DNA of 64,000 nt, from positions 1 through 64,000 of IMG/VR virus record IMGVR_UViG_3300023242_000001; one strand, 5' to 3'. Both the position numbers and the translations under genes were made by a program. The notes below the pieces were generated by a model that did not search any database, had not been told where the DNA came from, and was given only the letters and a program-made list of their open reading frames with translations. This DNA is from a virus. Below, in pieces: positions 917 to 17,682 of this stretch (position 1 is its first letter; each line of letters begins with the position of its first letter).

Positions 917-960
917 CAAACCAAAGCCCCAAGGTTTCGGTTTGCCGTTTGGCATAGCCC

Positions 961-974
961 GGTGCGACTGCACC
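961..974 (+). promoter_or_regulatory. RAYT hairpin element, copy 1
   Basis: GGTGC-GACT-GCACC, GGAG 6 nt downstream, ATG 992. Confidence 0.8.
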
Positions 975-991
975 ATTTTTGGAGATTGACC

Positions 992-1240
992 ATGACCATG
1001 ACCATGACCAACCTTGAGCGCGACTACGCCTACTACACCGCTGCCTTTTCGGCCCAGCAGGCCGAACAGGACGCCTTCCACGCCGATTTCGGCCTGCCCC
1101 GCGTCGACCTTGCCTGGGACAGGGCTGTTGACCGGGAGGCTGTGCGCAGCCGGCCCTCCTGGGATGCCCAGAAGGCCGACTTCAAGGCCGACCTGGAGCG
1201 GCGGCAGTACGCTGCCGCCATTGGGCTGGCGCTGGCCTGA
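992..1240 (+). CDS. Hypothetical early protein
   Basis: ORF MTMTMTNLERD after GGAG. Confidence 0.7.
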   Translation: MTMTMTNLERDYAYYTAAFSAQQAEQDAFHADFGLPRVDLAWDRAVDREAVRSRPSWDAQKADFKADLERRQYAAAIGLALA

Positions 1241-1324
1241 CCCCTTGCCCCCGACAACGCCAACGTCTGGGGGCACACCATAGGCAATCCCACGCTTATG
1301 GTGTGCCGCTTTTGGTACTGACCC

Positions 1325-1338
1325 GGTGCGACTGCACC
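1325..1338 (+). promoter_or_regulatory. RAYT hairpin element, copy 2
   Basis: GGTGC-GACT-GCACC, GGAG 5 nt downstream, ATG 1354. Confidence 0.8.
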
Positions 1339-1353
1339 ATTTTGGAGTCCAAA

Positions 1354-1524
1354 ATGAAATACGTTTCCGCCTTCCTTATGCTCGTGGTCGGTCTGATTTG
1401 CATGACCGGGGCGTTTGTCTCCAGCGTGTTCCCGGCACCTGGCGACCCAGCTCCGATGCACCTAATGGTCGGGGCTGTCGTGGCCTTCATCATCGGGGCT
1501 GTGAGGGTCCGGCTGGAGGACTGA
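1354..1524 (+). CDS. Small membrane protein (2 TM)
   Basis: Two hydrophobic segments, GGAG RBS. Confidence 0.7.
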   Translation: MKYVSAFLMLVVGLICMTGAFVSSVFPAPGDPAPMHLMVGAVVAFIIGAVRVRLED

Positions 1525-1573
1525 ACCTGAACCCCGACAAGGTCTCTGACTGCGATCTTGACGCAGACGCAGA

Positions 1574-1876
1574 CCCCGACAACGTCACGGACAAGGGCCC
1601 CCATCAGAGACGTTGTCGGGGCTGGTGACGGGGCTGGTGACGTGCACGTGTGCCAAGAGTTTGGCGTTGTCGCCGGTGTGGTCGTTGACGGGGACCTGGA
1701 CCTGGACCCGGACCTGGACCTGGACCTGGACCCGGACCTGGACCTGGACAAGGTCGCTGACGTTGTCGGGGACGTTGTCGGGGACCTGGACCTGGACCTG
1801 GACCTGGACCTGGACCTGGACCTGGACCTGGACCTGGACCTGGACAAGGTCGCTGACGTTGTCGGGGACGTTGTCG
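1574..1876. repeat. Compound repeat: (GACCTG)n tracts plus CCCCGACAACGTC motifs in both orientations
   Basis: 9 hexamers 1693-1746, 10 hexamers 1783-1842, exact 34-bp repeat 1747-1780/1843-1876. Confidence 0.95.
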
Positions 1877-2016
1877 CAGAAAGTTTGAAAAGTCAGTGAG
1901 CGCTGACGTTGACGGGGGCAGGTCCGCGCCCATTTTCGGGGGTCTATTCCCACTGTGCATCGTGTCGGTGTGCAGTGGGAATCAACTTCGATTCGACCTC
2001 AATCTGGAGATAAAAC

Positions 2017-2409
2017 ATGAACACAAACAACACCACCATTACCCAAAGGTTCCACACCGTCTCAGAGGCGGTAGCCTGGCTTTACGAGGGGTCTGGCCTG
2101 TGGGTCGGTATCGGCGCTCAAGAGCAACTCGACCTGTACGACAGCTTGGAGGAAGCAGGGAGAGCCAGTTGGGGCGACCGCGTGGCAGTGGTGCGCGACA
2201 CGGTCGGGATCTGCCATGCCAGCTACGACAGGGGCCACACGCCCGAGTGGACGCTGAAGCAAACACCCACGGCGGTGTTGGCGGCAAAGTACAGCTGCAC
2301 CACCGAGGATGTGTGGTACCACTTCGATGGTAGATCCGAACAGTCTGGGGCAAAGTCACTGCGGATCTGGAGGGAAAACTGCGAGTGGGACGAAATGGCG
2401 GAAACCTAA
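2017..2409 (+). CDS. Hypothetical protein
   Basis: ORF with GGAG RBS, downstream of a 16-bp hairpin. Confidence 0.7.
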   Translation: MNTNNTTITQRFHTVSEAVAWLYEGSGLWVGIGAQEQLDLYDSLEEAGRASWGDRVAVVRDTVGICHASYDRGHTPEWTLKQTPTAVLAAKYSCTTEDVWYHFDGRSEQSGAKSLRIWRENCEWDEMAET

Positions 2410-2501
2410 CCCACCAGGGCCAAGTCTGGCCCGGTTTCAATTGCGTTCTCAACCCAGAGCGCATCTGAAACCCAAATTACGCACCAATCCGGTGCATAAC
2501 C

Positions 2502-2515
2502 GGCGCGACTGCGCC
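2502..2515 (+). promoter_or_regulatory. RAYT hairpin element, copy 3
   Basis: GGCGC-GACT-GCGCC before GGGAG, ATG 2536. Confidence 0.8.
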
Positions 2516-2535
2516 AATTTGAAGGGAGTCCACGC

Positions 2536-2742
2536 ATGGTTCACACCTGCACGATTGGGAAGATCAAGGTTTACCGGGGTTACGCACCCCTTGAGTGGCG
2601 CCTCGTGGCGCCGGACGGGGTCGCCACCACGGTCAGACACAGCGGCCAGATCGTGGACACGGCCCACCACCTGGAGTGGGTGTACGACTGCCGGATGCAG
2701 CAGGCGTACGGGATCCGCCAGCGTGCTGTGATCCGGCGGTGA
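2536..2742 (+). CDS. Hypothetical protein
   Basis: ORF with RBS. Confidence 0.65.
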   Translation: MVHTCTIGKIKVYRGYAPLEWRLVAPDGVATTVRHSGQIVDTAHHLEWVYDCRMQQAYGIRQRAVIRR

Positions 2743-2941
2743 CCACCTGACAACCGGGGTTAGTCCACCACGGGGCTAAGTTAGTGACCACTAACCAAGC
2801 GCCAAAACCCCCAAAAATTTGCGTGAAAAACGACCTTTTTCGTTGTTTTTCTGCGAATCCAGGCCATTCTGAGCCTGAAACCAGACCCCGACAACGTCGG
2901 GAACCATGCCCAAAGCCCGGCACACCCGAGCCAACCAACCC

Positions 2942-2955
2942 GCGCCAACTGGCGC
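2942..2955 (+). promoter_or_regulatory. RAYT hairpin element, copy 4
   Basis: GCGCC-AACT-GGCGC, 9 nt before ATG 2965, no GGAG. Confidence 0.7.
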
Positions 2956-2964
2956 CGCAAGACC

Positions 2965-3222
2965 ATGCTCTATTTAGTCAAGCGTCCGGACGATCCGAAC
3001 CATCCAACCCCGCTCTTCGTGCGCAGTGGGCGCGCCACCCCCAACCTGGTGAGTGCGATCAAGCGAGCGCACCGCCTGAAGGGGCGCGTGTACAGCTATG
3101 ACGGCGAAAGCCGTCTGGTTCAGGACTTCTGGGTGGCCCCAGAACTGAGCCCGATCAACCCCGGCAGCCGCGAGTACCGCCAGCAGCGGGCCATGGCAGC
3201 GCTGTTCGGCGTGCTGGCGTAA
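2965..3222 (+). CDS. Hypothetical protein
   Basis: ORF with phage-like codon usage. Confidence 0.65.
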   Translation: MLYLVKRPDDPNHPTPLFVRSGRATPNLVSAIKRAHRLKGRVYSYDGESRLVQDFWVAPELSPINPGSREYRQQRAMAALFGVLA

Positions 3223-3617
3223 ACCCAAGCCCGAGCCCGAGTCCGACTTGAGCGTCTGTATATCCTCGAAATCCAAGGGGCAGATGGGCAAGTTGGGTAA
3301 CCTTCTGGCCTAGCATGGTCTCAAGCTTTGAACTCTGCACTATGCAAAGTACAAGGAATTAGAAGAATACAAGAAAGGTATATTTATTAGACAGATTATA
3401 CAAAGGCTAGGGGATCTAGGCCGCATGAATCGCTTGCTCAAGCTTGAAGTTCTTGCGCAAGTTTGCTGCTTGTGCCCTAGACCCCCCTGCGGTTTTCCAG
3501 GTCGAGAAACAAATGAGGTACCCCGCAGGCCGCGTAAACACTCATTTCCCTGAAAATTGGCATCCTGGATGCTTTTCGAGCCAGGGGATAAACTGCACAA
3601 ATTTCGAGCCAAGCGCC

Positions 3618-4436
3618 ATGACCCTTCGCATCCACTGTTTACCGGGCTCAAACGAGCCCTACCCGGGCCCCAAAGCGGATCTTGTCGGGCGCGTCTACGG
3701 GCAGCTGACCGTTACCCGCCTGAAGGGCCGCAGCTCCAGCTCCGGGGCCGTGGTCTGGGAGACGACCTGCGACTGCGGTCAGCTCTCCGACGCCAGGGCC
3801 GGCGCCCTGACCTCGGGCAAGAAAACCAGCTGCGGGTGCACGCAATACCTGAAGCAGAGCCTGGCCAAGCGCAAGGCCCCTTCAGGGGGCCTCGTGGGCC
3901 ACACGTTTGGAAGGCTGACCGTGGTGGCCCGCCAAAGCTCCGTGAAAGCCGTCAACAAGGTGGTCTGGCAGTGCTTGTGCCAGTGTGGCCGAACCACGTA
4001 TGAGAGCCAAAGCACACTTGTGCCCGGCGGCGTGATCAGCTGTGGGTGCGAACCCCTGCCCGAGTCCAAAGCCCTGCCCAAACCCAAACCAGCGCCCAAG
4101 CCCACGTCCCTGACCATGCAGCAGGTCAATGCCTGGACCGAGATGTGGATGGCCTGCGCCGACCCGGCTGACCCCACCTACATGGTGGAACCCGGCTGGA
4201 CGCCATGCGCAGACCCCGACCCCGACCCAGCCAACCCGCGCCGCACATGCTGGCGCGACAGCGGCGACCAACTGCAAACCACGCGCCCCGACCTTGCCCC
4301 ACCCGCGCGGTGGCGAGACGTGCGTTTGTTTGCCGCTGACATGGGTGAGCCCGCAAGCGCGCTGCGCCGAATCGGCAGGCGCGACCAGAACCTGCCCCAC
4401 GGCCCCGGCAACTCATCCTGGGTAATCGGAAACTGA
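3618..4436 (+). CDS. HNH-endonuclease-related protein with two G-x-L-T-V...W-x-x-x-C-x-CG...SCGC domains and a degenerate nuclease motif
   Basis: DLVGRVYGQLTV..CDCG..SCGC and FGRLTV..WQCLCQCG..SCGC; start uncertain (3444-3618). Confidence 0.7.
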   Translation: MTLRIHCLPGSNEPYPGPKADLVGRVYGQLTVTRLKGRSSSSGAVVWETTCDCGQLSDARAGALTSGKKTSCGCTQYLKQSLAKRKAPSGGLVGHTFGRLTVVARQSSVKAVNKVVWQCLCQCGRTTYESQSTLVPGGVISCGCEPLPESKALPKPKPAPKPTSLTMQQVNAWTEMWMACADPADPTYMVEPGWTPCADPDPDPANPRRTCWRDSGDQLQTTRPDLAPPARWRDVRLFAADMGEPASALRRIGRRDQNLPHGPGNSSWVIGN

Positions 4437-4570
4437 CCCGCGGCCCACACAGGAAAGAGGCGTTGTCCTACAGACAAGCCCGAATACCTTCCGTCGGTTG
4501 ACCTAGACAAACGTAACAAACGTAAGAGGATGACAAGGTATGTAGGTGTTCCCCCTACATAATTCGGGCC

Positions 4571-4618
4571 GCACCAACTGGTGCATTAAGCAGAGTCCAA
4601 ACCCGCACCAACTGGTGC
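4571..4618 (+). promoter_or_regulatory. RAYT hairpin elements, copies 5-6 (tandem)
   Basis: GCACC-AACT-GGTGC at 4571-4584 and 4605-4618. Confidence 0.75.
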
Positions 4619-4927
4619 ACCCATCCCGAGTCCAACCCCACATGAAATCAGATACAAACTAATCACTGCCCCGCGTCAGCACGGGGACGTTTACCGGGAC
4701 CTGGAGGCCCTCCCCAGCGGGAGCGGCTATAGGCGCACATAGACCCCAGGACTCGGACTGTACGAAGCGTTGATACCGGCTGCGGCCGGGGCTTCGTGCT
4801 ACCTCCCAACCGGCGCCAGCCCGGCATGTACGCAAGCTGGCTTGACCGGAACCCCGACAACGTCACGACCAAGGCCCAAGACCCAAGACCTGGCCTTTGG
4901 CGTTGTCGGGTGACCTGCCCAAATTCC

Positions 4928-4963
4928 GTGCCAACTGGCACAAACCCGGCGCCAACTGGCGCC
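4928..4963 (+). promoter_or_regulatory. RAYT hairpin elements, copies 7-8 (tandem)
   Basis: GTGCC-AACT-GGCAC and GGCGCC-AACT-GGCGCC, GGAG 7 nt downstream, ATG 4981. Confidence 0.8.
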
Positions 4964-4980
4964 ACCAACTGGAGTTCAAC

Positions 4981-5352
4981 ATGAACGTCGCCGAGACCCT
5001 CGCCAAGCAAAAAGCCCTTGTACTGGATGCCCTCGTCAAGTTCCGGGATGACCCCCAAACTGTGAGAAGACCAGTGGGCATCTGCTCAAACCTCGCCTGG
5101 GAGCTGCACGGCGAGGTTGAACACGAGCAACGAACCAGGCTTGAGCGCTCGCTCTTCAAGGCTTGGCCGGAGTACTCCGGCCACCCGGATTACCCGGTGC
5201 CCTCCGAAGGCTGTGACCCGGCGAGGGCCTACAACAACACCGATGACCAGTGGGACCCCGACAGCGCCTATGGCGCTGCCCGCTGGCGCCTGCTCGCCTT
5301 CATGATTTCGGAGTTGACCCGTGACGCCCACACCGCAAAGGAACCAGCATGA
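4981..5352 (+). CDS. Hypothetical protein
   Basis: ORF MNVAETLAK after GGAG. Confidence 0.75.
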   Translation: MNVAETLAKQKALVLDALVKFRDDPQTVRRPVGICSNLAWELHGEVEHEQRTRLERSLFKAWPEYSGHPDYPVPSEGCDPARAYNNTDDQWDPDSAYGAARWRLLAFMISELTRDAHTAKEPA

Positions 5353-5760
5353 CCATCCTTGACAACCTGCGCCTGGCGCACACCGTGATCTCGGCAGTCC
5401 CCGATGCGGCGCTTGACCTGCGGCAGTACAAGACGGAGTGCGGCACGATTGCCTGCGTCGCCGGGCACTTGGCCGGGCACCCGCACTTTGCCCCATTCGT
5501 GAGGCTGGAACTGACCCACGACGACGGTGTCGGGAGTTACAGCCTGCGAACGCAGGACTACGTCGCCCTGAACTTCAACTTCGGGCCGGCCGCCTTTGGC
5601 TCGATGTTTGCCCAGCGCGGGTGGGGGCGCTTCGACAGGCGGCACCCCGACAGGGTCTACGACCACGAGGAGGGGGAGTACCACGTCCACCCCCCGCGTC
5701 AGCGACAAGGAACTCGCCCTGTGGCGCATCGAGCGCCAGATCGAGGAGGTGTTGAAGTGA
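5349..5760 (+). CDS. Hypothetical protein, apparently frameshifted at the C6 run 5690-5695
   Basis: CGTIACVAG motif; a natural-looking C-terminus VSDKELALWRIERQIEEVLK* lies in the shifted frame. Confidence 0.55.
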
Positions 5761-5915
5761 CCCACCTTGACCAACTGCTGGCCCAGCACGGCCAGGCCCG
5801 CAAGGCCTTCTACCAAGCACCGACACCGTCGCTGGGAGCGACCCTGAAGCGCCTTGAGGGCCAAATCAAATACGAGCGGCGCGCCGCTCGCAAACCCGCC
5901 CCGACTGGGGCATGA
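5757..5915 (+). CDS. Small hypothetical protein
   Basis: GAGGAGG RBS, GTG start overlapping TGA. Confidence 0.55.
   Translation: MTHLDQLLAQHGQARKAFYQAPTPSLGATLKRLEGQIKYERRAARKPAPTGA
5898..5911 (+). promoter_or_regulatory. RAYT hairpin element, copy 9
   Basis: GCCCC-GACT-GGGGC, GGAG 7 nt downstream, GTG 5929. Confidence 0.85.
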
Positions 5916-5928
5916 ACTGGAGTTCAAA

Positions 5929-6312
5929 GTGAGTCACCCAATACCCAACAAATCTGAGGGCATCAAATGCCCCGTGCACCTCAGCGACAAGAACTACCTG
6001 TGCGGGGCAGACGGCGGGCTGATCTGCAGGCTCGTGGAGGCCACGGACGCCGAGATGCGCGAGATCGTCGAAGCGTTGAACACGCCCCCGGTATCTGTCG
6101 AGCTCAACACCGCCGTGTTGAAGCGCACCCTCGGCTCGATGCTGCGTACAAACGACATCAAGCCCAAAAGCGCGACCGGTCGCAAGATGATCCTCGCGTT
6201 CTGGTATGGCGCGATCACCCAGTCGGGGCGAGAAGCGCCGGCCGGCGTGGCGATATGCCTGTTGATAGGGCGCCACGAAGAGCTTGTCGATATGGGGGCG
6301 GGCGATGTCTGA
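5929..6312 (+). CDS. Hypothetical protein
   Basis: GTG start after the element RBS. Confidence 0.65.
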   Translation: MSHPIPNKSEGIKCPVHLSDKNYLCGADGGLICRLVEATDAEMREIVEALNTPPVSVELNTAVLKRTLGSMLRTNDIKPKSATGRKMILAFWYGAITQSGREAPAGVAICLLIGRHEELVDMGAGDV

Positions 6313-6937: not shown

Positions 6938-6992
6938 GATGCTCACGCACCAGGCGATGTTCGACATCACTTGGTGCGCTGACCCACAACCC

Positions 6993-7006
6993 GCCCCGAC
7001 TGGGGC
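6993..7006 (+). promoter_or_regulatory. RAYT hairpin element, copy 10
   Basis: GCCCC-GACT-GGGGC; lies in a 36-bp exact repeat of 5893-5928. Confidence 0.85.
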
Positions 7007-7025
7007 ATGAACTGGAGTTCAAACC

Positions 7026-7259
7026 ATGACCCACTGCTACCTGCGAACGGGGGGCGACGCGCTCGAAGACGCCGTCGCCTACCTCACCATCGGCGCCGCC
7101 GTGCGCGACTTCGAGGCCACCGCGCGAGAGCTTGACGGGTACGGCCAGCGCATCGATGCCAGCGTCCACATCGCCGCCAACTTCGAGGAGCTGGGCGAGT
7201 ACCCCGACATCGTCCTGAGCCTGGGCCCGCGCGGCGGGCTGCGCAAGGAGGCGGCATGA
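7026..7259 (+). CDS. Hypothetical protein
   Basis: ORF ending GPRGGLRKEAA. Confidence 0.7.
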   Translation: MTHCYLRTGGDALEDAVAYLTIGAAVRDFEATARELDGYGQRIDASVHIAANFEELGEYPDIVLSLGPRGGLRKEAA

Positions 7260-7323
7260 ACTGCACCGTGGCCAAACGAAACCAAGACGCCGTCGACTTG
7301 ATGCGTCGCACAAGGAGTACCAA

Positions 7324-7907: not shown

Positions 7908-7908
7908 G

Positions 7909-8627: not shown

Positions 8628-8650
8628 CCCGCGCCACCGGCGCACAACCC

Positions 8651-8664
8651 GCCCCAACTGGGGC
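8651..8664 (+). promoter_or_regulatory. RAYT hairpin element, copy 11
   Basis: GCCCC-AACT-GGGGC, GGAG 7 nt downstream, ATG 8682. Confidence 0.85.
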
Positions 8665-8681
8665 ACCAACCGGAGTCCAAC

Positions 8682-9317
8682 ATGTACAAAGTCAAAGAGC
8701 TTGCCAGCTCGAATCCCGACATCGTCGCTGTCATTTACCAGGACGACGACGCGGAGCCGCCCGAGAGCGACATCGTCAAGATCGCCTACCGAGGCAGCGC
8801 ACGAACCACGCTGGGCAGCCAGCCCTGCACCGACGACGAGCTCGACCAGATCGGGCAAGACATCGCCGACGGCGTGCTCGTCGGCGTGCCGGTGTGGGCC
8901 TACGTCCACAGTGGATCCACCATCAGCACCGGCACCAAGCTGCGCGGCGATACCGAGGCGCGACTGCGCGAGAACCCCTACCACTGCCGCTGGGACAGCT
9001 GGCGCAGCGGCTGGGCCTACATGACAGCCAAGGACGCCCTCAAAGAGTGGGGCAACAAACGCCTGTCGGCGCAGCAGCGCGACAAGGCCCACCACTACAT
9101 CGACGGCGTGGTTGACGAGTTCGCCATGTACCTGCGCGGCGAGGTCTACGGATACACCATCGATCGCATCGAGCGTGACGAGGCCGGAGACGAGATCGGG
9201 CGCGACGAGCTGGAATCGTGCTGGGGCTTCTTCGGGGAGGAGTACGTCACCGAGGAGGCGCTGGATGCGCTTCGGATTGTGTGCAAAGAGGAAGACAAGC
9301 TGGTGGCGGGCCTGTGA
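8682..9317 (+). CDS. Conserved phage hypothetical protein
   Basis: YVHSG, CRWDS, GEVYGY, SCWGFFG motifs. Confidence 0.75.
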   Translation: MYKVKELASSNPDIVAVIYQDDDAEPPESDIVKIAYRGSARTTLGSQPCTDDELDQIGQDIADGVLVGVPVWAYVHSGSTISTGTKLRGDTEARLRENPYHCRWDSWRSGWAYMTAKDALKEWGNKRLSAQQRDKAHHYIDGVVDEFAMYLRGEVYGYTIDRIERDEAGDEIGRDELESCWGFFGEEYVTEEALDALRIVCKEEDKLVAGL

Positions 9318-10862: not shown

Positions 10863-10863
10863 A

Positions 10864-11355: not shown

Positions 11356-11381
11356 CCCCGCTGCAACCGCAGCAACCACCC

Positions 11382-11395
11382 GGCGCGACTGCGCC
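11382..11395 (+). promoter_or_regulatory. RAYT hairpin element, copy 12
   Basis: GGCGC-GACT-GCGCC, GGAG 7 nt downstream, ATG 11413. Confidence 0.85.
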
Positions 11396-11412
11396 ACATC
11401 TAGGAGTTCCAC

Positions 11413-11811
11413 ATGGACGACACCGCATTTCACAAAGCCCTGGGCGAGAGCCGAAACGGCACCGACGCCTTCCACTTCAACCCGCTGTACCGCTGGATGA
11501 AGTACAGCGACGGCGTCAAGGAGGTGGCCGAGTCAGGCTGCTACTGGCTGCTGGATACGCTTGGGCTGACCATCCGACCCGCGCTGCGAGGCCTGAAGCA
11601 GACCTACGTCATGGCCACCGTCACGGTCTCGGTCAAGGCCAGCAAGGCCAAGATCACCGCCACCACCGGCGACGAGGACCCGCCGTTCTGGACCGAGAAC
11701 GTGAGCTACACCGACATGCCGGACGGCGACTGGAGCATGCTGCTGACCTATGAGGCCACCACCCAGGGCGGGGTCGGCGATGGCCGCTTGATCCTGGTCA
11801 CGGAGTACTGA
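11413..11811 (+). CDS. Conserved hypothetical protein (DUF6876-like)
   Basis: YSDGV..AE.GCYWLLD..YTDMP..LILVTEY. Confidence 0.65.
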   Translation: MDDTAFHKALGESRNGTDAFHFNPLYRWMKYSDGVKEVAESGCYWLLDTLGLTIRPALRGLKQTYVMATVTVSVKASKAKITATTGDEDPPFWTENVSYTDMPDGDWSMLLTYEATTQGGVGDGRLILVTEY

Positions 11812-11814
11812 GCC

Positions 11815-12431: not shown

Positions 12432-12463
12432 ATAACCGACCCCGCGCATTCCGCGCAAACCCC

Positions 12464-12477
12464 GCCTCGATTGAGGC
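12464..12477 (+). promoter_or_regulatory. RAYT hairpin element, copy 13
   Basis: GCCTC-GATT-GAGGC, GGAG 7 nt downstream, ATG 12495. Confidence 0.85.
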
Positions 12478-12494
12478 AATTTAAGGAGTCCCAA

Positions 12495-12929
12495 ATGGGA
12501 ACACGTTCCATCACGTCCGTCATCGAGAACGGCACCATCCTGTGCACCATGTACCGTCAGTTCGACGGCTACCCCAGCGTCCACGGGGCGGATCTGCACA
12601 AGTTCCTCGCTGCTCTGACGCTGGTCAACGGCATCAGCAGTGCGGACAACCGCCGCATCGCCAACGGCGCCGGCTGCCTCGCTGCGCAGATGGTGCACCA
12701 CTTCAAGCAGACCTCAACAGATGCCCGCACATCGATGGCGGGCAACGTCTACATCACCGCGCCGCGCCTGAAGCTCGACAGCGAGGACTACGGCTACACC
12801 GTGTCGGTCGACGACAAGCTTCGCACCAGGATCAAGTGCTATGTGGTGGGGCACGGCAACGTCGACGACAGCATCTTCTGCGGAACCGTGGCCGAGTTCG
12901 GCGAGTTCTGCGCGAAGGATGTCGCATGA
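12495..12929 (+). CDS. Conserved phage hypothetical protein
   Basis: MGTRS..YRQFDGYP..NGAGCLAAQ. Confidence 0.75.
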   Translation: MGTRSITSVIENGTILCTMYRQFDGYPSVHGADLHKFLAALTLVNGISSADNRRIANGAGCLAAQMVHHFKQTSTDARTSMAGNVYITAPRLKLDSEDYGYTVSVDDKLRTRIKCYVVGHGNVDDSIFCGTVAEFGEFCAKDVA

Positions 12930-13141: not shown

Positions 13142-13329
13142 GATTCGCCCAGACCTACTGCAGCCAGTGTGGCCAAGAGCAGGGCCCGGGTGACAACGGC
13201 GTAAGCCACTGCCGCGACCACCTCAATGCTCACGTCCACCCGGTGTTCCGAGACATCTTGTCGGGGTTCTTCACACCGCAGCCGACCCGCGCGCCGGACG
13301 AGCGCCCACAGCCAGGAGACATGACATGA
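13138..13329 (+). CDS. Small Cys/His protein
   Basis: GGAGG RBS; CSQCG..SHCRDH. Confidence 0.65.
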   Translation: MRFAQTYCSQCGQEQGPGDNGVSHCRDHLNAHVHPVFRDILSGFFTPQPTRAPDERPQPGDMT

Positions 13330-13517
13330 GCTTCTCACCCCTGCCCTTTGATTACTCCCGGTGCCAGCCGCAGCCGGGGCCAGTGGCCAACTGCCGGGCC
13401 TGCGCCAGGTGGGCTGACCACCCCAAACAAGTGTGGGGTGAGCGGACCCCGTTCGAGAGCCTGGACCCGACCGGCCCACATTGCGACTTCACCCCCGCAG
13501 ACACCAAGCACCGCTAA
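13326..13517 (+). CDS. Small Cys-rich protein
   Basis: DYSRC..CRACARW. Confidence 0.6.
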   Translation: MSFSPLPFDYSRCQPQPGPVANCRACARWADHPKQVWGERTPFESLDPTGPHCDFTPADTKHR

Positions 13518-13524
13518 CCCACCC

Positions 13525-13538
13525 GCCCCGACTGGGGC
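13525..13538 (+). promoter_or_regulatory. RAYT hairpin element, copy 14
   Basis: GCCCC-GACT-GGGGC, GGAG 7 nt downstream, GTG 13556. Confidence 0.85.
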
Positions 13539-13555
13539 ATTAACCGGAGACCAAA

Positions 13556-13879
13556 GTGATCAACCTCACCGACTTCACCGAGCGCATCGTCACGCTCAGC
13601 ACAGCCCACATCCCCAAGCACACCGCTGCCGCGCTCGGCAAGTACCGCGAAGACTGCGTGGTGGCCGAGTTGTGGGGCCACATCCACTACGAACCCTGGG
13701 GCGACTTCGGCTGGATCATCTGGGCCAGTTCAGAGTGTTGCGAGGACGCCCTGGCACCCCACCCCGAACTGGCAGCCCTGATGGCCATGTGCGCCGAGCG
13801 GCGCATCCAGTGGCTGCGACTGGACTGCGACGCCCCGCCCCACCCTGAGTTGCCGACTTTTGAATGGGAGCCGACATGA
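13556..13879 (+). CDS. DUF5983-like protein
   Basis: LSTAHI..GW..WLRLDCDA..LPTFEW. Confidence 0.65.
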   Translation: MINLTDFTERIVTLSTAHIPKHTAAALGKYREDCVVAELWGHIHYEPWGDFGWIIWASSECCEDALAPHPELAALMAMCAERRIQWLRLDCDAPPHPELPTFEWEPT

Positions 13880-14256
13880 ACTACATCAAGACCGCCGACG
13901 GCGAAATCTCCACCTTCGACATCTGCCAAGCCTACATGCAGCTGGAGTCCGACTTCAACGTCGACGGCTTGCTGCGTGAGCGCCCCAGCAACCAGCGCCG
14001 GCGCGAGTCGATCGGCTGCCAGCTGGCCCGCCTGAAGTTCAACCCCGGCATGCGCTGGGTTGACATTGTGAGCTTCGACAACGACGCCGACGACGAGGAC
14101 GAAGACCGAGATGTGCGCTGGATCTACCTCAACAAGTTGATGGAGTGGGGGCTGCCCGCCGACGAGGGCCTGCTTGCCGCCATCAATAGGCTGTTCGTCC
14201 GCGACTGGCTCCTGGCCAACTTTCCCGCCTACGCCTGCACCGAGGTGGCGGCATGA
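13876..14256 (+). CDS. Hypothetical protein
   Basis: FDICQAY..LESDFNVDG.LRERPSNQRR. Confidence 0.7.
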   Translation: MNYIKTADGEISTFDICQAYMQLESDFNVDGLLRERPSNQRRRESIGCQLARLKFNPGMRWVDIVSFDNDADDEDEDRDVRWIYLNKLMEWGLPADEGLLAAINRLFVRDWLLANFPAYACTEVAA

Positions 14257-14489
14257 AGATGAATTTTTCCAGGGTCACGCGGCCGGGCCGAGCGGGAATA
14301 TCCATGAGCCTCGGAGAGCTTGACGAGCATTTCAAGCTGAAGCCGGGCACCTGCTTTGGCAGCATCGTCAGGCCGGCCGAGGGGCTCGCCCCACCCAAGG
14401 CATCCAACTTGAACGCTTCGTCCGGCAAGAACCTGTACCGCGTCGGCGAGTTCCGCCAATATCTTCAACTTCGAGGAAAACTGCAATGA
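14253..14489 (+). CDS. Hypothetical protein, possibly DNA-binding
   Basis: Coupled ORF, GAGG RBS. Confidence 0.55.
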   Translation: MKMNFSRVTRPGRAGISMSLGELDEHFKLKPGTCFGSIVRPAEGLAPPKASNLNASSGKNLYRVGEFRQYLQLRGKLQ

Positions 14490-14716
14490 CCATGAACCCC
14501 TTCAAGAAACCCGACATCGCCCGCGTCCTGCAAGACCAGATCTACGAGGCGCAGCGAGCACTGATCGACGCCGCGGCGAGCACCGAGATGGCCCGCGCCC
14601 ACCTTGAGCGGGCCCGTGCCAGTCAACTCTACTGCGAGACCCGCCTGACCACCCTGCGAGCCATGACCAAGCCCTGCCACGTGCTGGGCGCACTTTCATC
14701 ACTGGAGTCAACATGA
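14486..14716 (+). CDS. Hypothetical coiled-coil protein
   Basis: Coupled ORF. Confidence 0.6.
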   Translation: MTMNPFKKPDIARVLQDQIYEAQRALIDAAASTEMARAHLERARASQLYCETRLTTLRAMTKPCHVLGALSSLEST

Positions 14717-14994
14717 ACACGATCAAATTTTCCCTGCTCGCCACTGCGCTGGCCTTCGCCTTTTCCGCGCAGGCCGCACGCCCGTCTGCAGAGCTTCGCA
14801 AGACCTGCGCAGATCTGGGCGAGATAGCCACACAGCTTGCCGGCTTCAACCGAAGAGGCGTACCCATCGGCCAGGCTGTACGCCTCGTTCAGGGCGGCCC
14901 ATCGATACTGCTCGACCTTGTCCAAGATGCCTACGCTTTGCCGATCAACCCCAACCCAACCCTCGACGCGAGAGCCGTGGGGAAGTTTGGGTAA
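14713..14994 (+). CDS. Putative exported protein
   Basis: Signal peptide ending AFSAQA. Confidence 0.65.
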   Translation: MNTIKFSLLATALAFAFSAQAARPSAELRKTCADLGEIATQLAGFNRRGVPIGQAVRLVQGGPSILLDLVQDAYALPINPNPTLDARAVGKFG

Positions 14995-15073
14995 GCTGCG
15001 GAAATCCTGGGCTTGAGGGGGCGCTGATCAGCTCCAAGAAGTCCACCCGACCACCTACATCTGAAAGCTGAAC

Positions 15074-15319
15074 ATGAAGACCAAATTCACCGTCGTGCTG
15101 ATGCGCCCCGACTACCGCGCTGACCCGTACGGCCAGGACTGCTACGTCGCACGTGTCGAAGCTGTGAACGCCTACCGCGCTCGTGAGGAAGCCCAGAAAG
15201 AGGCGTGGAAGTACGACAACAAGGACCTTGGCGAGACGAGTGGCTTCTCCGACGACTACCACTCGCTCCTCGTTTTCGAGGGGCACCAGGAAGTGAAGCT
15301 GTTCGGCTTCCAGGCCTGA
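15074..15319 (+). CDS. Hypothetical protein
   Basis: FTVVLMRPDY..VFEGH. Confidence 0.7.
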   Translation: MKTKFTVVLMRPDYRADPYGQDCYVARVEAVNAYRAREEAQKEAWKYDNKDLGETSGFSDDYHSLLVFEGHQEVKLFGFQA

Positions 15320-15354
15320 CCCAGACTAACCCCAGGCCGAAAGGCCATCAACCC

Positions 15355-15368
15355 GCCTCGATTGAGGC
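15355..15368 (+). promoter_or_regulatory. RAYT hairpin element, copy 15
   Basis: GCCTC-GATT-GAGGC, GGAG 7 nt downstream, ATG 15387. Confidence 0.85.
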
Positions 15369-15386
15369 AACTTTCGGAGTCCAACT

Positions 15387-16088
15387 ATGGCAAAACTCGC
15401 CAGGAATTACCACGCCCAACTGACCCTGAAGTCGGCCAACGCCAAGACCGGCCCAATACCCGTCAGCGTCACCGCCAGCGACAGCTGCCCGCCGTCCTGC
15501 TCCTTCATGGGCAACGGCTGCTACGCCGAGTCCGGCCCACTTGCCCTGCACTGGGCCAAGGTCAACACCGGTGAGCGCGGCATGCCGTGGCAGATGTTCT
15601 GCGACGCCATCGACACGCTGCCGGCCAACCAGCTGTGGCGCCACAACGCCGCTGGCGACCTGCCCGGGCACGACAACGTGATCGACGGCGTGGCGCTCGG
15701 CATGCTGGTCAAGGCCAACGCCGGCAAGCGCGGCTTCACCTACACCCACTACCCACCCACGCCGGGCAACGTCAGCGCCGTGGCCATGGCCAACGCTGCC
15801 GGCTTCACCGTCAACTTCTCCGCCGACTCGGCAAGTGAGGCTGACGCGCTGTGCGACCTGGGCGTGGGCCCGGTCGTCTGTGTGCTCCCCAGCACCCAGA
15901 CAACGAACAGCAAGACGCCCGCCGGACGCAAGGTGGTGGTGTGCCCCGCCACCGTCCGAGACGACACCAGCTGCGCCGACTGCGGCCTGTGCCAAGTGCA
16001 GCGAGACACCGTGATCGGCTTCCCCGCCCACGGCAGCAGCTACCGCCGGGTCGACATCCGCCTGCTTTCCAAAACCCGCGTCGCCTGA
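15387..16088 (+). CDS. Gp88-like Cys-rich protein (radical-SAM-like)
   Basis: NAKTG, CPPSC..GCYA, WRHNAAGDL, FTYTH, CPA..CADCGLC. Confidence 0.65.
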   Translation: MAKLARNYHAQLTLKSANAKTGPIPVSVTASDSCPPSCSFMGNGCYAESGPLALHWAKVNTGERGMPWQMFCDAIDTLPANQLWRHNAAGDLPGHDNVIDGVALGMLVKANAGKRGFTYTHYPPTPGNVSAVAMANAAGFTVNFSADSASEADALCDLGVGPVVCVLPSTQTTNSKTPAGRKVVVCPATVRDDTSCADCGLCQVQRDTVIGFPAHGSSYRRVDIRLLSKTRVA

Positions 16089-16098
16089 CGCATCGCCT

Positions 16099-16112
16099 GC
16101 CCCGATTGGGGC
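16099..16112 (+). promoter_or_regulatory. RAYT hairpin element, copy 16
   Basis: GCCCC-GATT-GGGGC, GGAG 7 nt downstream, ATG 16130. Confidence 0.85.
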
Positions 16113-16129
16113 ATTTTCAGGAGTTCAAC

Positions 16130-16588
16130 ATGGCCAACAAATCAATCAGTCACAAGGCAGACGTCATCGACAGCCGCAACGTCATCGCCCGCATCGACGA
16201 TTTGGGGGGTTCCTTTCAGGACGCCTACGACACCTTCGTCGAGGAGTACACCGGCCCAGGCGAGGCACTCCCTGACTTCGATGACTGGCTCACCGAGATC
16301 AGCCAAGCCGACGACCACATCGACCAGGACGACGCCATCGAGCTGATCGAGCTGCGCAAGCTGGCCACCCAGTGCGAGAGCTACGGCAGCTGGAGCAGCG
16401 GCGAGGAGTTGATCCGCCGCCGCCACTTCGTCCGGTACATCAAGGAGTGGTCCAGGAGCGTCAACGCTGTCTCTGACAACGACGACTGGCTCTACAACCA
16501 CATCGACTGGGACGCCGCCGCCGCAGAGCGTGAGGCCGACTACATGGAGGCCACCTTCAAAGGCAAGACGTTCCTGATGCGCGCTTGA
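16130..16588 (+). CDS. Acidic ArdA-like antirestriction protein (putative)
   Basis: Very acidic; C-terminal HIDWDAAA..EADY resembles the ArdA terminal domain. Confidence 0.5.
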   Translation: MANKSISHKADVIDSRNVIARIDDLGGSFQDAYDTFVEEYTGPGEALPDFDDWLTEISQADDHIDQDDAIELIELRKLATQCESYGSWSSGEELIRRRHFVRYIKEWSRSVNAVSDNDDWLYNHIDWDAAAAEREADYMEATFKGKTFLMRA

Positions 16589-16620
16589 CACCCACCCCCA
16601 AACCACATAACACCCAACCC

Positions 16621-16634
16621 GCCCCGACTGGGGC
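16621..16634 (+). promoter_or_regulatory. RAYT hairpin element, copy 17
   Basis: GCCCC-GACT-GGGGC, GGAG 6 nt downstream, ATG 16651. Confidence 0.85.
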
Positions 16635-16650
16635 ATTCCAGGAGTCCAAC

Positions 16651-17682
16651 ATGATTTCCATCGAAACCCGCGACTACACCGGCGTCACCAGCGAGCAAGT
16701 CATCGCCGAGATGCTCAAGGAGAACACGGGAAGCGCCCTGTGCGACAGCGGCGGGGCTTACGGCCGCAACTGGTCGCGCAACGCCGGCCGCGACTTCGCC
16801 ACCGACCCCAAGTGCACCACGCGCTGGGACGTGATCGAGACCGCCAAGGCGTCCCGCGTCAGCGTCTCCTCCACTGTAAGCCTCTACCACTGGATGGTCG
16901 CCCACCTGGAGTTCGACGCCGAGCTGCAGCAGGATCTCGACACTTTCATGGCCGAGGAAGGGCTTGGGGACCTGGAGGCCGCCGACAACTTCGCCCAGCA
17001 CCTGTTCGATGCCGAGCGGCTGGCCAGCGAGCCCTACTGCGTCAACACCTCCAACCCCGTAGACGACGTCAACCTCTCGCAAGTCTTGCAGTTCCACGTC
17101 ATCACCATCGACGGCGACTACGAGCCCACGCACCTGATCCTGACGGTGCACGGCGGCTGCGACGTGCGCGACGGCTACACCGACCCCAAGTGCTTCCGGC
17201 TGCGCACCGAGTACGACGAGGCGATGAGCAACGCCAGGGCCAGCTACCTGGTCGCCGGGGAAGATGGCTGGCACATCCCGGACGGTTGCTGGCGCGACAT
17301 CGAGCGCTCCGAGCAGAACGCCACCGCTCACAGGAACCCGCTCGACCTGCCCGCCTACACCCCGCACAGCCTGATGCAGCGCGCCGAGGAAGAGTGGGAC
17401 GTGCCCGAGGCACTGCAGGACCTGAAAGACATGCACGAGGCGATCTACCGGGGCGACCTCCAACTCAACCGCCTGAAGGCGCAGGCCACCCGCAACCAAC
17501 CCGAGGAGACGCTGCTTGAGCATCTGCAGGCTGGGCGCGACGAGATGAGGGAGAAGGTCTTCGAGGCCGTCGCCGAACTCTCCGAGGAACTTGCCGAGGA
17601 CTTCATCTACGTCGAGGCCGGGCGCGCCTGGCTGGTGGTCGACGGATCTGCTGACGAGCTCAAGGTTGAAGTGAGCTTCTGA
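16651..17682 (+). CDS. Conserved acidic phage hypothetical protein
   Basis: ENTG..DSGGAYGRNW; HGGCDVRDGYT. Confidence 0.75.
   Translation: MISIETRDYTGVTSEQVIAEMLKENTGSALCDSGGAYGRNWSRNAGRDFATDPKCTTRWDVIETAKASRVSVSSTVSLYHWMVAHLEFDAELQQDLDTFMAEEGLGDLEAADNFAQHLFDAERLASEPYCVNTSNPVDDVNLSQVLQFHVITIDGDYEPTHLILTVHGGCDVRDGYTDPKCFRLRTEYDEAMSNARASYLVAGEDGWHIPDGCWRDIERSEQNATAHRNPLDLPAYTPHSLMQRAEEEWDVPEALQDLKDMHEAIYRGDLQLNRLKAQATRNQPEETLLEHLQAGRDEMREKVFEAVAELSEELAEDFIYVEAGRAWLVVDGSADELKVEVSF

What the first reader, a model, noticed from the sequence alone, without database searches (positions are those of the whole stretch)
958..16653. 17-copy covarying RAYT hairpin fixed upstream of the RBS of early gene modules: candidate undescribed regulatory or cassette system
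Seen: CC(C)-G-N3-C-[GACT/AACT/GATT]-G-N3'-C at 961, 1325, 2502, 2942, 4571, 4605, 4928, 4949, 5898, 6993, 8651, 11382, 12464, 13525, 15355, 16099 and 16621, plus a wobble variant at 20641. Seven different stems occur (GGTGC, GGCGC, GCGCC, GCACC, GTGCC, GCCCC, GCCTC) and all pair perfectly. The outer G-C pair, the closing C-G pair and the RAYT loop are fixed while the middle three pairs covary, so structure rather than sequence is conserved. Thirteen copies are followed by GGAG (usually GGAGTYC) and a start codon, and nine of these have exactly 7 nt between stem and GGAG. All copies are on the + strand, nearly all are intergenic, and I saw none in the late genes. They mark the first gene of blocks whose later genes are mostly translationally coupled. 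Known analogues: boxB antitermination hairpins, MS2-type translational operators, N4 hairpin promoters, T4-type PeSL cassettes and mycobacteriophage start-associated sequences; none has this consensus as far as I can tell. Inference: a site read by one phage or host factor that co-regulates or processes the early accessory transcripts, and possibly a shuffling joint.
Basis: partly seen in the sequence, partly recalled or inferred. Interest (0 to 1): 0.88.

Follow-up and report, generated by a model that had tools for sequence, protein, structure and literature searches.

The report
Repeated hairpin-RBS module in a phage
A temperate phage of Burkholderiales-type bacteria places the same tiny stem-loop, with a near-fixed four-base loop, about seven bases ahead of the ribosome-binding site of 13 early gene blocks. 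The element is real, matches no Rfam family, marks the points where genes are swapped between related phages, and probably docks one still unidentified regulator.

Summary
There are 17 perfect 5-bp hairpins with an RAYT tetraloop, all on the + strand between 961 and 16634, against 0.2 expected from shuffles. Flank consensus is aaCCC-[stem]-A-N6-GGAGTYCAAC-ATG.

A pattern that does not demand pairing gave these results:
- 596 Gb of prokaryote genomes: 45 hits, 1 paired (chance level).
- Metagenomes: 56 hits, 16 perfectly paired, all in the RBS context.

Across 41 distinct copies there are 16 different stems, 100% pairing and 52 two-sided changes. The loops stay RAYT.

The element is confined to a small lineage: this genome, one Burkholderiales prophage and about ten short contigs. 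Four complete or near-complete relatives at about 55% PolA identity gave no match. Rfam gives no match.

Homology between phages breaks at the module in 5 of 5 informative comparisons, so it is a shuffling joint.

Best reading, inferred and not shown: a sense-strand RNA operator on one long PR transcript, read by a lineage-specific factor that controls translation or processing. No such factor was identified.

The scan has noted repeated covarying hairpins between early genes in other phages before. Those are long, RNase III-like hairpins, whereas this one is short and has a specific loop.

The parts
958..994 (+). Module 1: CCC, hairpin 961-974 (GGTGC/GACT), 6-nt linker, GGAG 981-984, ATG 992 (82-aa ORF)
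1322..1356 (+). Module 2: hairpin 1325-1338 (GGTGC/GACT), 5-nt linker, GGAG 1344, ATG 1354. A terminator-like hairpin at 1272-1307 lies just upstream.
2500..2538 (+). Module 3: hairpin 2502-2515 (GGCGC/GACT), 9-nt linker, GGAG 2525, ATG 2536. A companion hairpin GCACC-AATCC-GGTGC lies 4 nt upstream.
2939..2967 (+). Module 4, without SD: hairpin 2942-2955 (GCGCC/AACT), ATG 2965 of a basic 85-aa ORF. Its G001 orthologue follows a complete module.
4571..4584 (+). Relic copy (GCACC/AACT) followed by a degenerate AGAGTCC; no ORF
4602..4644 (+). Relic copy: hairpin 4605-4618 (GCACC/AACT) followed by a degenerate CGAGTCC and a 6-codon stump
4928..4941 (+). Tandem extra copy (GTGCC/AACT), 7 nt before the next hairpin
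4946..4983 (+). Module: hairpin 4949-4962 (GCGCC/AACT; 6 bp if 4948/4963 are counted), GGAG 4971, ATG 4981
5895..5931 (+). Module: hairpin 5898-5911 (GCCCC/GACT), 7-nt linker, GGAG 5919, GTG 5929. The upstream ORF 5349-5915 ends in a TGA just after the stem. Identical over 36 nt to the 6993 module.
6990..7028 (+). Module: hairpin 6993-7006 (GCCCC/GACT), GGAG 7014, ATG 7026
8648..8684 (+). Module: hairpin 8651-8664 (GCCCC/AACT), GGAG 8672, ATG 8682. A companion hairpin GCGCC-ACC-GGCGC lies upstream.
11379..11415 (+). Module: hairpin 11382-11395 (GGCGC/GACT), GGAG 11403, ATG 11413 (DUF6876 protein)
12461..12497 (+). Module: hairpin 12464-12477 (GCCTC/GATT), GGAG 12485, ATG 12495. Mosaic joint against L073 and L064.
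13522..13558 (+). Module: hairpin 13525-13538 (GCCCC/GACT), GGAG 13546, GTG 13556 (DUF5983-like protein)
15352..15389 (+). Module: hairpin 15355-15368 (GCCTC/GATT), GGAG 15376, ATG 15387 (DUF7227 protein)
16096..16132 (+). Module: hairpin 16099-16112 (GCCCC/GATT), GGAG 16120, ATG 16130. Mosaic joint against G001 17904.
16618..16653 (+). Module: hairpin 16621-16634 (GCCCC/GACT), 6-nt linker, GGAG 16641, ATG 16651. The orthologous G001 site has a 4-bp stem with an ATTT loop.

Best explanation
**What the element is.** It is the 5' half of a roughly 45-nt intercistronic module:
- (stop codon)-yCAACCC;
- a 5-bp G/C-rich stem with a C(RAYU)G tetraloop;
- an invariant A;
- a G-poor, A/U-rich linker that puts GGAG 7 nt from the stem;
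- a 6-nt UYCAAC spacer and then AUG.

**How it most likely works.** It folds in the sense RNA of one long early transcript that starts at the single strong rightward sigma70-type promoter (PR, G000 about 75,512-75,541). It heads most of the gene blocks in the first 17 kb that are not translationally coupled to the gene before.

The loop, the loop-closing C-G pair, the basal G-C pair and the CCC/A flanks are fixed, while the three middle pairs are free. The spacing to the SD is also fixed. I therefore read the hairpin as the operator of one sequence- and shape-specific trans-acting factor. The factor is most likely a phage-encoded RNA-binding protein. By sitting at the 5' edge of the 30S footprint it would switch translation of the whole early accessory regulon together. 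Late or lysogenic shut-off in the manner of T4 RegA seems more likely than activation.

**Side effect, shown by comparison.** The 35-45 nt of near-identity act as the joint at which genes are exchanged between related phages.

**Shown:** the element, its pairing constraint, its strand, its spacing, its restriction to one lineage, and the mosaic joints.

**Inferred:** action at the RNA level, the existence of a factor, and the effect on translation.
For: **The element is real and strand-specific.** 17 copies are observed against 0.2 expected, and the covariance-model hits are on the + strand only.

**Pairing is constrained, independent of how copies were found.** A pattern without a pairing requirement gives 1 of 45 paired hits in 596 Gb of genomes. 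In metagenomes it gives 16 of 56, and all 16 are followed by the cAAC-ATG context.

**Information pattern typical of a protein-RNA hairpin site.** There are 16 stems but only the four RAYT loops. A2, U4 and the closing C-G pair are invariant in 41 copies, CCC is present in 31 and the 3' A in 37. When copies are sampled by the RBS cassette alone, RAYT loops still dominate.

**A ruler to the SD.** The linker is 7 nt in 24 of 35 copies although its sequence is not conserved. It contains 3% G against 31% in the genome.

**Sense-strand folding.** All copies run in the direction of the genes. The only non-Watson-Crick pairs seen are two U.G wobbles in the sense strand. Predicted hairpin probability in mRNA context averages 0.92, with a mean energy of -9.5 kcal/mol.

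**One transcript.** PR and the divergent promoter each score 11 of 12. No sigma70-like site is found in 1-20,000. No T7-like RNA polymerase or sigma factor is encoded.

**Lineage-specific, and not a host repeat.** The model found no match in four complete or near-complete relatives at about 55% PolA identity, three of which were also scanned directly for hairpin-SD-start arrangements. In a genome related to the host, pattern matches are at control level.

**Block structure.** Genes within blocks overlap or abut, and modules head the blocks.
Against:
- No RNA-binding protein or nuclease was recognised among the early proteins or among the ORFs shared only by module-bearing phages.
- A few genuine members carry other loops, or a 4-bp stem, at orthologous sites. 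Loop reading is therefore not absolute.
- Orthologous genes can carry or lack the module.
- Copies in alignment A1 were picked for perfect pairing and RAYT loops, so the 100% figure is partly ascertainment. The unbiased controls are.
- G.U pairs are almost absent (0 of 205 cells in A1). That would also fit a DNA-level hairpin or quasi-palindrome correction during replication.
Confidence: 0.4

Rival explanations
1. Processing and stability punctuation. A loop-specific endoribonuclease (phage-encoded, Cas6/Csy4-like in logic, or a host enzyme) cuts beside the hairpin. The upstream cistron then ends in a protective 3' hairpin, or the downstream one starts with a 5' hairpin. The long PR transcript is split into units with separate half-lives, as RNase III does for the T7 early mRNA.
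For: - The position between cistrons, often 0-10 nt after the stop codon.
- About a third of the modules have a second hairpin just upstream, separated by single-stranded (A)AACCC.
- The junction bases are invariant (basal G-C pair, 3' A).
- The hairpin is stable, at -9.5 kcal/mol.
- The scan has met hairpin punctuation of early operons in other phages.
Against: - A 5-bp stem is far too short for RNase III.
- No nuclease was recognised.
- The companion hairpin is present in only about a third of copies.
- A fixed distance to the SD is not needed for a stability element.
Confidence: 0.2
2. A purely cis-acting structural element with no dedicated factor. The hairpin insulates the RBS from upstream folding, blocks ribosomes or 70S scanning coming from the upstream cistron, or pauses RNA polymerase about 11 nt downstream so that a new ribosome can load.
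For: - The hairpin sits at the 5' edge of the 30S footprint at a fixed distance.
- Modules head the uncoupled blocks.
- Variant members keep a hairpin but not the loop.
Against: - Disrupting or deleting the hairpin in silico does not change the predicted cost of opening the SD-AUG region: 6.3 against 6.8 and 6.1 kcal/mol.
- Strong conservation of the loop and flanks is unexplained.
- Relatives of the same GC content and architecture do without it.
- Uncoupled genes beyond 17.7 kb lack it.
Confidence: 0.12
3. Primarily a recombination linker or a selfish palindromic insert. The module persists because it spreads and mediates gene exchange. Perfect stems are kept by quasi-palindrome correction, not by selection on a fold.
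For: - Homology breaks at the module in 5 of 5 comparisons, and an identical 36-nt module lies between unrelated flanks.
- Tandem and relic copies exist without genes.
- 'Empty' cassettes CAACC(C)-TTA-GGAG without a hairpin occur at the first PR gene and at G001 15122; the G001 int RBS has the same linker and SD without the CAAC flank.
- There are no one-sided intermediates in 205 cells.
Against: - Neutral spread does not explain why the loop and flanks stay fixed while stems turn over.
- It does not explain the single orientation, or the conserved linker length with free sequence.
- Recombination at conserved regulatory sequences is an expected by-product, as with PeSLs.
Confidence: 0.12
4. 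A DNA-level hairpin. This could be a single-strand or cruciform promoter of the N4 type, a non-template-strand hairpin that loads an elongation factor (ops/RfaH-like), or the site of a hairpin-specific recombinase or HUH nuclease.
For: - Stems use Watson-Crick pairs only in the window.
- No sigma70-like promoter lies in the first 20 kb.
- The hairpin is small and of N4-promoter size.
Against: - No T7/N4-like RNA polymerase domain or sigma factor is encoded. The only recombinase seen is an ordinary phage integrase beside tRNA-Cys.
- Gaps as short as 3-9 nt between the stop codon and the hairpin, and hairpins inside upstream ORFs, fit a polycistronic RNA.
- U.G wobbles occur in two members.
- A fixed distance to the SD has no meaning for a DNA site.
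Confidence: 0.08
5. Weak intrinsic terminators or attenuators placed before each block and read through after antitermination.
For: - A GC-rich hairpin is followed by a U-rich linker (consensus AACUUUU/A).
- The 961 copy passes a simple terminator scan.
Against: - The U-run starts 3 nt after the stem and is missing in many window copies.
- Only 1 of 17 copies passes the scan, and terminator-like sites overall are at shuffle level.
- Terminators do not need a conserved loop.
Confidence: 0.05

Closest known systems
[quoted passage not shown] 2011, PMC3203893), and the 26-bp SAS-like repeat of Felix O1-like phage Mordin (PMC4611695)
   Same: - A multi-copy, one-orientation repeat that includes the SD, a few bases before the start codon.
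- It heads non-structural genes of a temperate siphovirus.
- It is absent from the host genome and associated with unrelated genes.
- An upstream inverted repeat is present in a subset.
- The function was still unknown in 2025 (PMC12699233).
   Different: - SAS is a fixed 13-bp sequence.
- The ESAS arms are 17-bp imperfect repeats with a conserved sequence, and their differences do not support RNA pairing (PMC3203893).
- Here the stem sequence is free, pairing is strict, the loop is fixed and the stem is only 5 bp.
- There is no sequence similarity.
PeSL (promoter-early stem-loop) cassettes of T4-type phages (PMC2839356, PMC4122927)
   Same: - Short conserved intergenic regulatory cassettes containing a stem-loop.
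- They flank small variable early genes and serve as points of homologous exchange.
   Different: - PeSLs are terminator plus sigma70 early-promoter composites.
- This module has no promoter-like hexamers and is coupled to the RBS.
RNase III processing sites of the T7 early mRNA (R0.3-R1.3), and the long covarying intergenic hairpins noted by this scan in other uncultivated phages
   Same: A repeated, structure-conserved hairpin in the gaps of a long early polycistronic transcript, just upstream of the next RBS.
   Different: - RNase III substrates are roughly two helical turns long with internal loops (established knowledge).
- This stem is 5 bp with a sequence-specific tetraloop.
Single-hairpin protein operators: lambda/P22 boxB-N, MS2/PP7 coat-protein operators, the T4 RegA regulon
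   Same: - A small hairpin (boxB: 5 bp) whose loop and closing pair are read by a phage protein while the stem sequence is free.
- RegA shuts off many early mRNAs at their initiation regions.
   Different: - boxB has a GNRA-like pentaloop, a boxA partner and only two copies per phage.
- The MS2 loop is ANYA, with a bulged A, and overlaps the AUG.
- RegA sites are unstructured.
- None of these has the C(RAYU)G consensus or a 7-nt ruler to the SD.
N4 virion RNA polymerase hairpin promoters
   Same: A 5-7 bp hairpin with conserved loop and flank bases upstream of early genes.
   Different: - The N4 loop has 3 nt and there are few copies.
- It requires an injected giant T7-like polymerase.
- No such polymerase is encoded here, and this phage is a temperate siphovirus with a sigma70-type switch.

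Membership tests
Any Rfam family | A match to a curated covariance model | tested here: not met
   There were no hits at gathering score in the whole window. At E <= 1 over 1-17800 the only hits were two chance matches on the CTG/CCCCTG repeat.
Cluster K SAS/ESAS | The 13-bp consensus GGGATAGGAGCCC just before the start codon | tested here: not met
   The module consensus is GGAGTYCAAC. Only the GGAG core is shared.
Cluster K SAS/ESAS | Upstream 17-bp imperfect inverted repeats with a conserved sequence and no support for RNA pairing | tested here: not met
   The arms here are 5 bp, free in sequence and strictly complementary.
PeSL | A stem-loop joined to a sigma70 early promoter | tested here: not met
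   No sigma70-like hexamer pair lies in 1-20000. Only 17 nt separate the stem from the ATG.
PeSL | Acts as an exchange point between otherwise unrelated genes | tested here: met
   One-sided homology ends at the module in 5 of 5 informative pairs.
RNase III processing signal | A double-stranded stem of about one to two helical turns | tested here: not met
   The stem is 5 bp (6 bp in a few copies). No consistent longer pairing of the flanks appears in the MFE folds.
lambda-type nut site (boxA + boxB) | A 5-bp stem with a GNRA-like pentaloop, and a boxA sequence a few nt upstream | tested here: not met
   The loop has four bases, RAYU. The 5' flank is CAACCC and abuts the stem.
lambda-type nut site (boxA + boxB) | An N-like arginine-rich antiterminator is encoded | tested here: inconclusive
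   No family hit among the early ORFs. N proteins are too diverse to exclude.
N4-type hairpin promoter | A cognate single-subunit (T7-like) virion RNA polymerase | tested here: not met
   A six-frame search with PF00940 was empty, although the control genomes also lack this family. The large ORFs are a tape measure, PolA, a primase and tail proteins.
N4-type hairpin promoter | Transcripts start about 11 nt from the loop centre | not testable with these tools
Integron attC / gene cassette | A 57-141 nt imperfect palindrome with inverted R''/R' core sites and extrahelical bases, plus an IntI-type integrase and attI | tested here: not met
   The hairpin is a perfect 14-nt structure. The YCAAC flanks are direct repeats, not inverted. 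The only tyrosine recombinase is a phage integrase next to tRNA-Cys; whether it carries the IntI-specific domain was not checked.
REP elements (host repeat with its transposase) | Many copies dispersed in the host chromosome | tested here: not met
   In a genome with 83% nucleotide identity to the prophage flank there were 15 pattern matches against 16 in the control, and 1 was paired. In 185,579 species genomes there were 45 matches and 1 was paired.
Intrinsic terminator | A GC-rich stem directly followed by a U-tract | tested here: inconclusive
   The linker is U-rich at positions 4-7 but starts with an invariant A. One of 17 copies passes the scan.

The most novel reading that the evidence does not exclude
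The phage lineage encodes a small, so far unrecognisable protein (a binder or a Csy4-like nuclease) that reads a 14-nt C(RAYU)G-capped hairpin at a fixed 7-nt distance from the Shine-Dalgarno sequence. Through it the protein switches a regulon of at least 13 early cistrons on one transcript. This would be a compact, orthogonal post-transcriptional control system. It would also be the first mechanistic handle on the 'start-associated sequence' class of phage repeats.
Probability: 0.3. Interest if true: 0.8.

Novelty: new variant of a known kind. Interest (0 to 1): 0.62.

Why it matters
Repeats tied to gene starts in phage early regions (SAS/ESAS, the Felix O1-type repeat, PeSLs) have been known for 15 years, and the SAS-type repeats still have no established mechanism.

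This element is the cleanest case I could compare:
- It has a minimal 14-nt hairpin with strict compensatory change.
- It has a four-base loop limited to transitions.
- It has a length-conserved but sequence-free ruler to the SD.
- It has a sharp phylogenetic boundary: present in two genomes, and not found in relatives at 55% PolA identity.

That combination makes the question testable with a handful of reporter mutants.

If a dedicated reader exists, the pair would be a small orthogonal translational switch of practical use. The element also documents, at base resolution, how a regulatory cassette doubles as the recombination joint that shuffles accessory genes.

Tried and rejected
- **Close relatives in GenBank phages.** None by DNA; the best protein hits were 25% identity. 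A single-sequence PolA search of IMG/VR found nothing. An alignment-based search was needed.
- **Insulator idea.** Destroying or deleting the hairpin in silico leaves the opening energy of the SD-AUG region unchanged, so I rejected this as the main role.
- **Loop-SD pairing (pseudoknot).** RAYU is complementary to the AGUY inside GGAGUYC, but loops starting with A go with U in only 4 of 5 usable cases (p about 0.19). A fully paired tetraloop is also sterically implausible. Not pursued.
  - Pfam, PHROGs and PDB sequence searches of about 30 early proteins gave only DUFs, a NinX-like protein and an HNH-like protein.
  - Phylogenetic profiling gave about ten ORFs shared with G001 and absent from three module-free relatives.
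  - The most basic of these, an 85-aa protein at 2965-3222, gave no atlas lead. Its AlphaFold model (pLDDT 73) had no Foldseek PDB match below E 0.3.
- **Host repeat.** Rejected.
- **Sigma70, sigma54 or ECF promoter reading of the module.** No conserved hexamers at fitting positions (inspection).
- **My first two gene callers.** They were crude. Gene starts away from the modules are approximate.

Full report
**1. Observation**

A mechanical scan for perfect 5-bp stems around a 4-nt loop finds 150 such hairpins per strand in the window. On the + strand the commonest loops are GACT (8), AACT (7) and GATT (3).

The window is positions 1-64000 of a 76,295-bp, 63% GC virus record. Over the whole record, the only other perfect RAYT hairpins are + 34573 and - 2431. 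Allowing one mismatch adds only sites without the flanks.

Dinucleotide shuffles give 0.20 copies (maximum 3) for 901-16700, against 17 observed.

A covariance model built from 41 copies was run without filters over the whole genome. It gives 15 hits at E <= 4e-4, all on the + strand within 951-16661. Scores then fall to noise at 14.8 bits or less.

Rfam gives nothing at gathering score. At E <= 1 there is nothing on the modules.

**2. Pairing is a real constraint**

I searched public collections with a pattern that fixes only the conserved letters and does not ask for complementarity.

| Collection | Matches | Fully paired |
|---|---|---|
| 596 Gb, one genome per prokaryote species | 45 | 1 (chance is 1 in 64); no hit has the cAAC-ATG context |
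| Metagenome contigs | 56 | 16 |

In the metagenome set the distribution is bimodal. The 16 perfectly paired hits are all but one followed by the RBS and start context. The other 40 have 2-4 pairs and lack that context.

IMG/VR gave a 46-kb provirus contig, G001 (also held as Ga0255128_1000022). It has nine to ten copies, all with GATT loops, and stems not seen in the window.

Across 41 distinct copies:
- there are 16 different stems;
- 205 of 205 cells pair;
- there are 52 two-sided changes and no one-sided change;
- the loops are GATT (20), GACT (11), AACT (7) and AATT (3);
- the closing C-G pair is invariant, CCC precedes the stem in 31 copies and A follows it in 37.

That alignment was selected for pairing and loop, so I also sampled by the RBS cassette alone. 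RAYT hairpins still dominate. However, true members also exist with a U.G wobble (L059 about 1020; L101 about 3790, a 6-bp stem with a TATT loop). Others have a 4-bp stem with an ATTT loop (G001 18,440, orthologous to window 16621), a 7-nt loop, or no hairpin at all.

**3. Setting**

The genome is a temperate siphovirus. Its recognisable genes include:
- a tape measure of 2062 aa;
- PolA with a 5'-3' exonuclease domain;
- an ATP-dependent ligase;
- an SNF2 helicase;
- a primase;
- an SbcC-like protein;
- a tyrosine integrase beside tRNA-Cys.

All genes from 1 to about 41.7 kb are on the + strand.

The rightward one faces across the record end into the window. No sigma70-like site occurs in 1-20,000, and 20-40 kb is at chance level. 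No T7-like RNA polymerase and no sigma factor domain is encoded. The early arm is therefore most simply one long PR transcript. This is an inference.

G001 is integrated next to tRNA-Cys and tRNA-Gly. Its flank is 83% identical in nucleotides, and syntenic, to 'Burkholderiales bacterium 8X'. The host is therefore a Burkholderiales bacterium. That genome holds the core pattern only at control level (15 against 16, one paired), so the hairpin is not a host repeat.

**4. Anatomy**

- Fourteen copies directly precede a start codon: 13 with GGAG, while the 2942 copy has no SD.
- The copy at 4928 is a tandem extra, and 4571 and 4605 are relics with degenerate SDs in a 540-nt non-coding stretch.
- Genes between modules overlap or abut (ATGA, 4 nt or less), so modules head most of the uncoupled blocks of the first 17 kb. 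A few gapped starts in this region (for example 2017 and 7324) have no module. Uncoupled genes further right have ordinary RBSs.
- The stem-to-GGAG distance is 7 nt in 24 of 35 copies and 8 nt in 6. The SD-to-start distance is 6 nt in 22 of 35.
- The linker sequence is free but G-poor (3% G, 41% T), with consensus AACUUU(U/A).
- The upstream stop codon often lies 0-10 nt before CCC. At 5898 and 6993 the upstream reading frame runs through the hairpin and stops just after it.
- About a third of the copies have a second perfect hairpin 4-8 nt upstream. It has the same CCC...A flanks but other loops.
- In mRNA context the hairpin forms with a mean probability of 0.92, with a mean energy of -9.5 kcal/mol.

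**5. Distribution and mosaicism**

An alignment-based PolA search found complete or near-complete relatives at 54-56% identity (G003, G005 and G007 at 92-100% estimated completeness; G004 at 70%). The covariance model finds nothing in them. In G003, G005 and G007, hairpin-SD-start arrangements are at background level and have no strand bias: 7-15 per strand, against 26 and 7 in G000 and 23 and 3 in G001. The module is therefore an innovation of a narrow lineage and not a need of high-GC phages of this type.

Between G000 and G001 the replication module is syntenic at about 65% amino-acid identity, while the early accessory genes are few, shuffled and partly unrelated.

Every informative pair of modules shows homology on one side only, ending inside the module:

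| Pair | Side with homology |
|---|---|
| 12464 vs L073 | upstream only |
| 12464 vs L064 | downstream only |
| 16099 vs G001 17904 | downstream only |
| 11382 vs L103 | downstream only |
| G001 16642 vs L080 | downstream only |

In addition, 5893-5928 and 6988-7023 are identical between unrelated flanks. The module is thus a recombination joint, as PeSLs are in T4-type phages (PMC2839356, PMC4122927).

**6. Mechanism**

What is fixed: the loop (limited to transitions at positions 1 and 3), the closing pair, the basal pair, the single-stranded flanks, the stem length and the distance to the SD.

What is free: the middle pairs and the linker sequence.

This is the pattern expected for a hairpin read by a protein at its loop and at its single-strand/double-strand junctions, placed at the 5' edge of the 30S footprint. 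Single orientation with transcription, intercistronic position with almost no room for other signals, hairpins inside upstream ORFs and two sense-strand U.G pairs all favour RNA.

My best reading (confidence 0.4) is an operator for coordinate translational control of the early accessory regulon by a lineage-specific factor.

Rivals:

| Rival | Confidence | Main point |
|---|---|---|
| Site-specific processing and stabilisation | 0.2 | RNase III itself is excluded by the 5-bp stem |
| Factor-free structural role | 0.12 | Weakened by unchanged in-silico RBS accessibility, by loop conservation and by absence from relatives |
| Mainly recombinational or selfish element kept perfect by quasi-palindrome correction | 0.12 | Does not explain loop, orientation or ruler |
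| DNA-level hairpin | 0.08 | No polymerase or hairpin recombinase is encoded |
| Weak terminator | 0.05 | U-run is displaced and often missing |

**7. What failed**

- No RNA data were available.
Early proteins are ORFans, DUFs, a NinX-like protein and an HNH-like protein.
- Profiling gives about ten ORFs shared only with G001.
- The basic 85-aa ORF at 2965-3222 follows a module in both genomes, but it gave no atlas or Foldseek lead.

**8. Comparison and novelty**

The nearest described things are these:
- The start-associated sequences of Cluster K mycobacteriophages, with their upstream inverted repeats. Their function is still unknown, and their arm differences do not support RNA pairing (PMC3203893, PMC12699233).
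- A similar 26-bp repeat in phage Mordin (PMC4611695).
- PeSLs.

Other agents of this scan have reported covarying hairpins between early genes in at least eight other genomes, mostly phages. Most were long and read as RNase III-like. The general theme is therefore not new.

The new features here are the minimal 5-bp stem, the sequence-specific RAYU tetraloop, the 7-nt ruler to the SD and the sharp lineage boundary. I class it as a new variant of a known kind, with interest 0.62.

Noticed in passing
window 100-916: About 800 nt without a credible ORF and visibly lower in G+C than the rest of the genome. It lies between the first PR gene and the first module. Rfam finds nothing there.
   Followed up: partly
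window 1249-4910 (e.g. 1530-1620, 2885-2902, 4850-4910) and 1690-1850: Convergent copies of CCCCGACAACGYC form long inverted repeats, and a (GGACCT)n microsatellite lies in the same region as the first modules. Their role is unknown.
   Followed up: no
L010 11373-11541 (G000 75,373-75,541): A divergent sigma70-type switch. The leftward promoter is TTGACA-17-TACAAT with the ATG of a 135-aa gene 6 nt downstream (leaderless). The rightward promoter is GTGACA-18-TATAAT. Both carry GCAATTG near the -35 box.
   Followed up: partly
L010 11608-12295 plus window 1-95: The first PR gene (about 260 aa, Ala-rich) runs across the record ends through (CCCCTG)n and (CTG)n repeats, so the 'direct terminal repeat' is probably an assembly overlap inside a gene. 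Its RBS is CAACCC-TTA-GGAG, which is the module without the hairpin.
   Followed up: partly
window 2476-2494, 5871-5892, 8630-8642, 11356-11369, 12440-12452, 15328-15339, 16075-16088: Companion hairpins lie 4-8 nt upstream of about a third of the modules. They have the same CCC...A flanks and perfect stems but other loops (ACC, AACC, ATTCC, GAAA, GCCT). The one before 12464 also shows a compensatory difference against L073.
   Followed up: partly
L009 3739-6452 (G001 43,739-46,452): Prophage-host junction: tRNA-Cys, tRNA-Gly and an ORF of more than 810 aa. The flank is 83% identical in nucleotides to Burkholderiales bacterium 8X, which gives the host order for this phage lineage.
   Followed up: yes
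window 7888-8409 and 8315-8409; L007 11581-11675 and 12486-12562: A P22 NinX-like protein. The DNA of its last 30 or so codons is conserved at 77-87% in two separate G001 genes, each followed by an ATGA/GTGA overlap with the next gene.
   Followed up: partly
window 3240-3620 and 3513-4436; 34529-34792: An AT-rich non-coding stretch precedes an HNH-like ORF that carries repeated W-x-C-x-C-x-CG...SCGC motifs. The same Cys motif occurs in a basic 87-aa ORF shared only with G001.
   Followed up: no
L009 about 3558-3608, minus strand (G001 about 43,560-43,610): The integrase of G001 uses the linker and SD of the module (TTTTA-GGAGTCCAAC-ATG) on the opposite strand, without an RAYT hairpin. The RBS cassette can therefore exist and move without the hairpin.
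   Followed up: no
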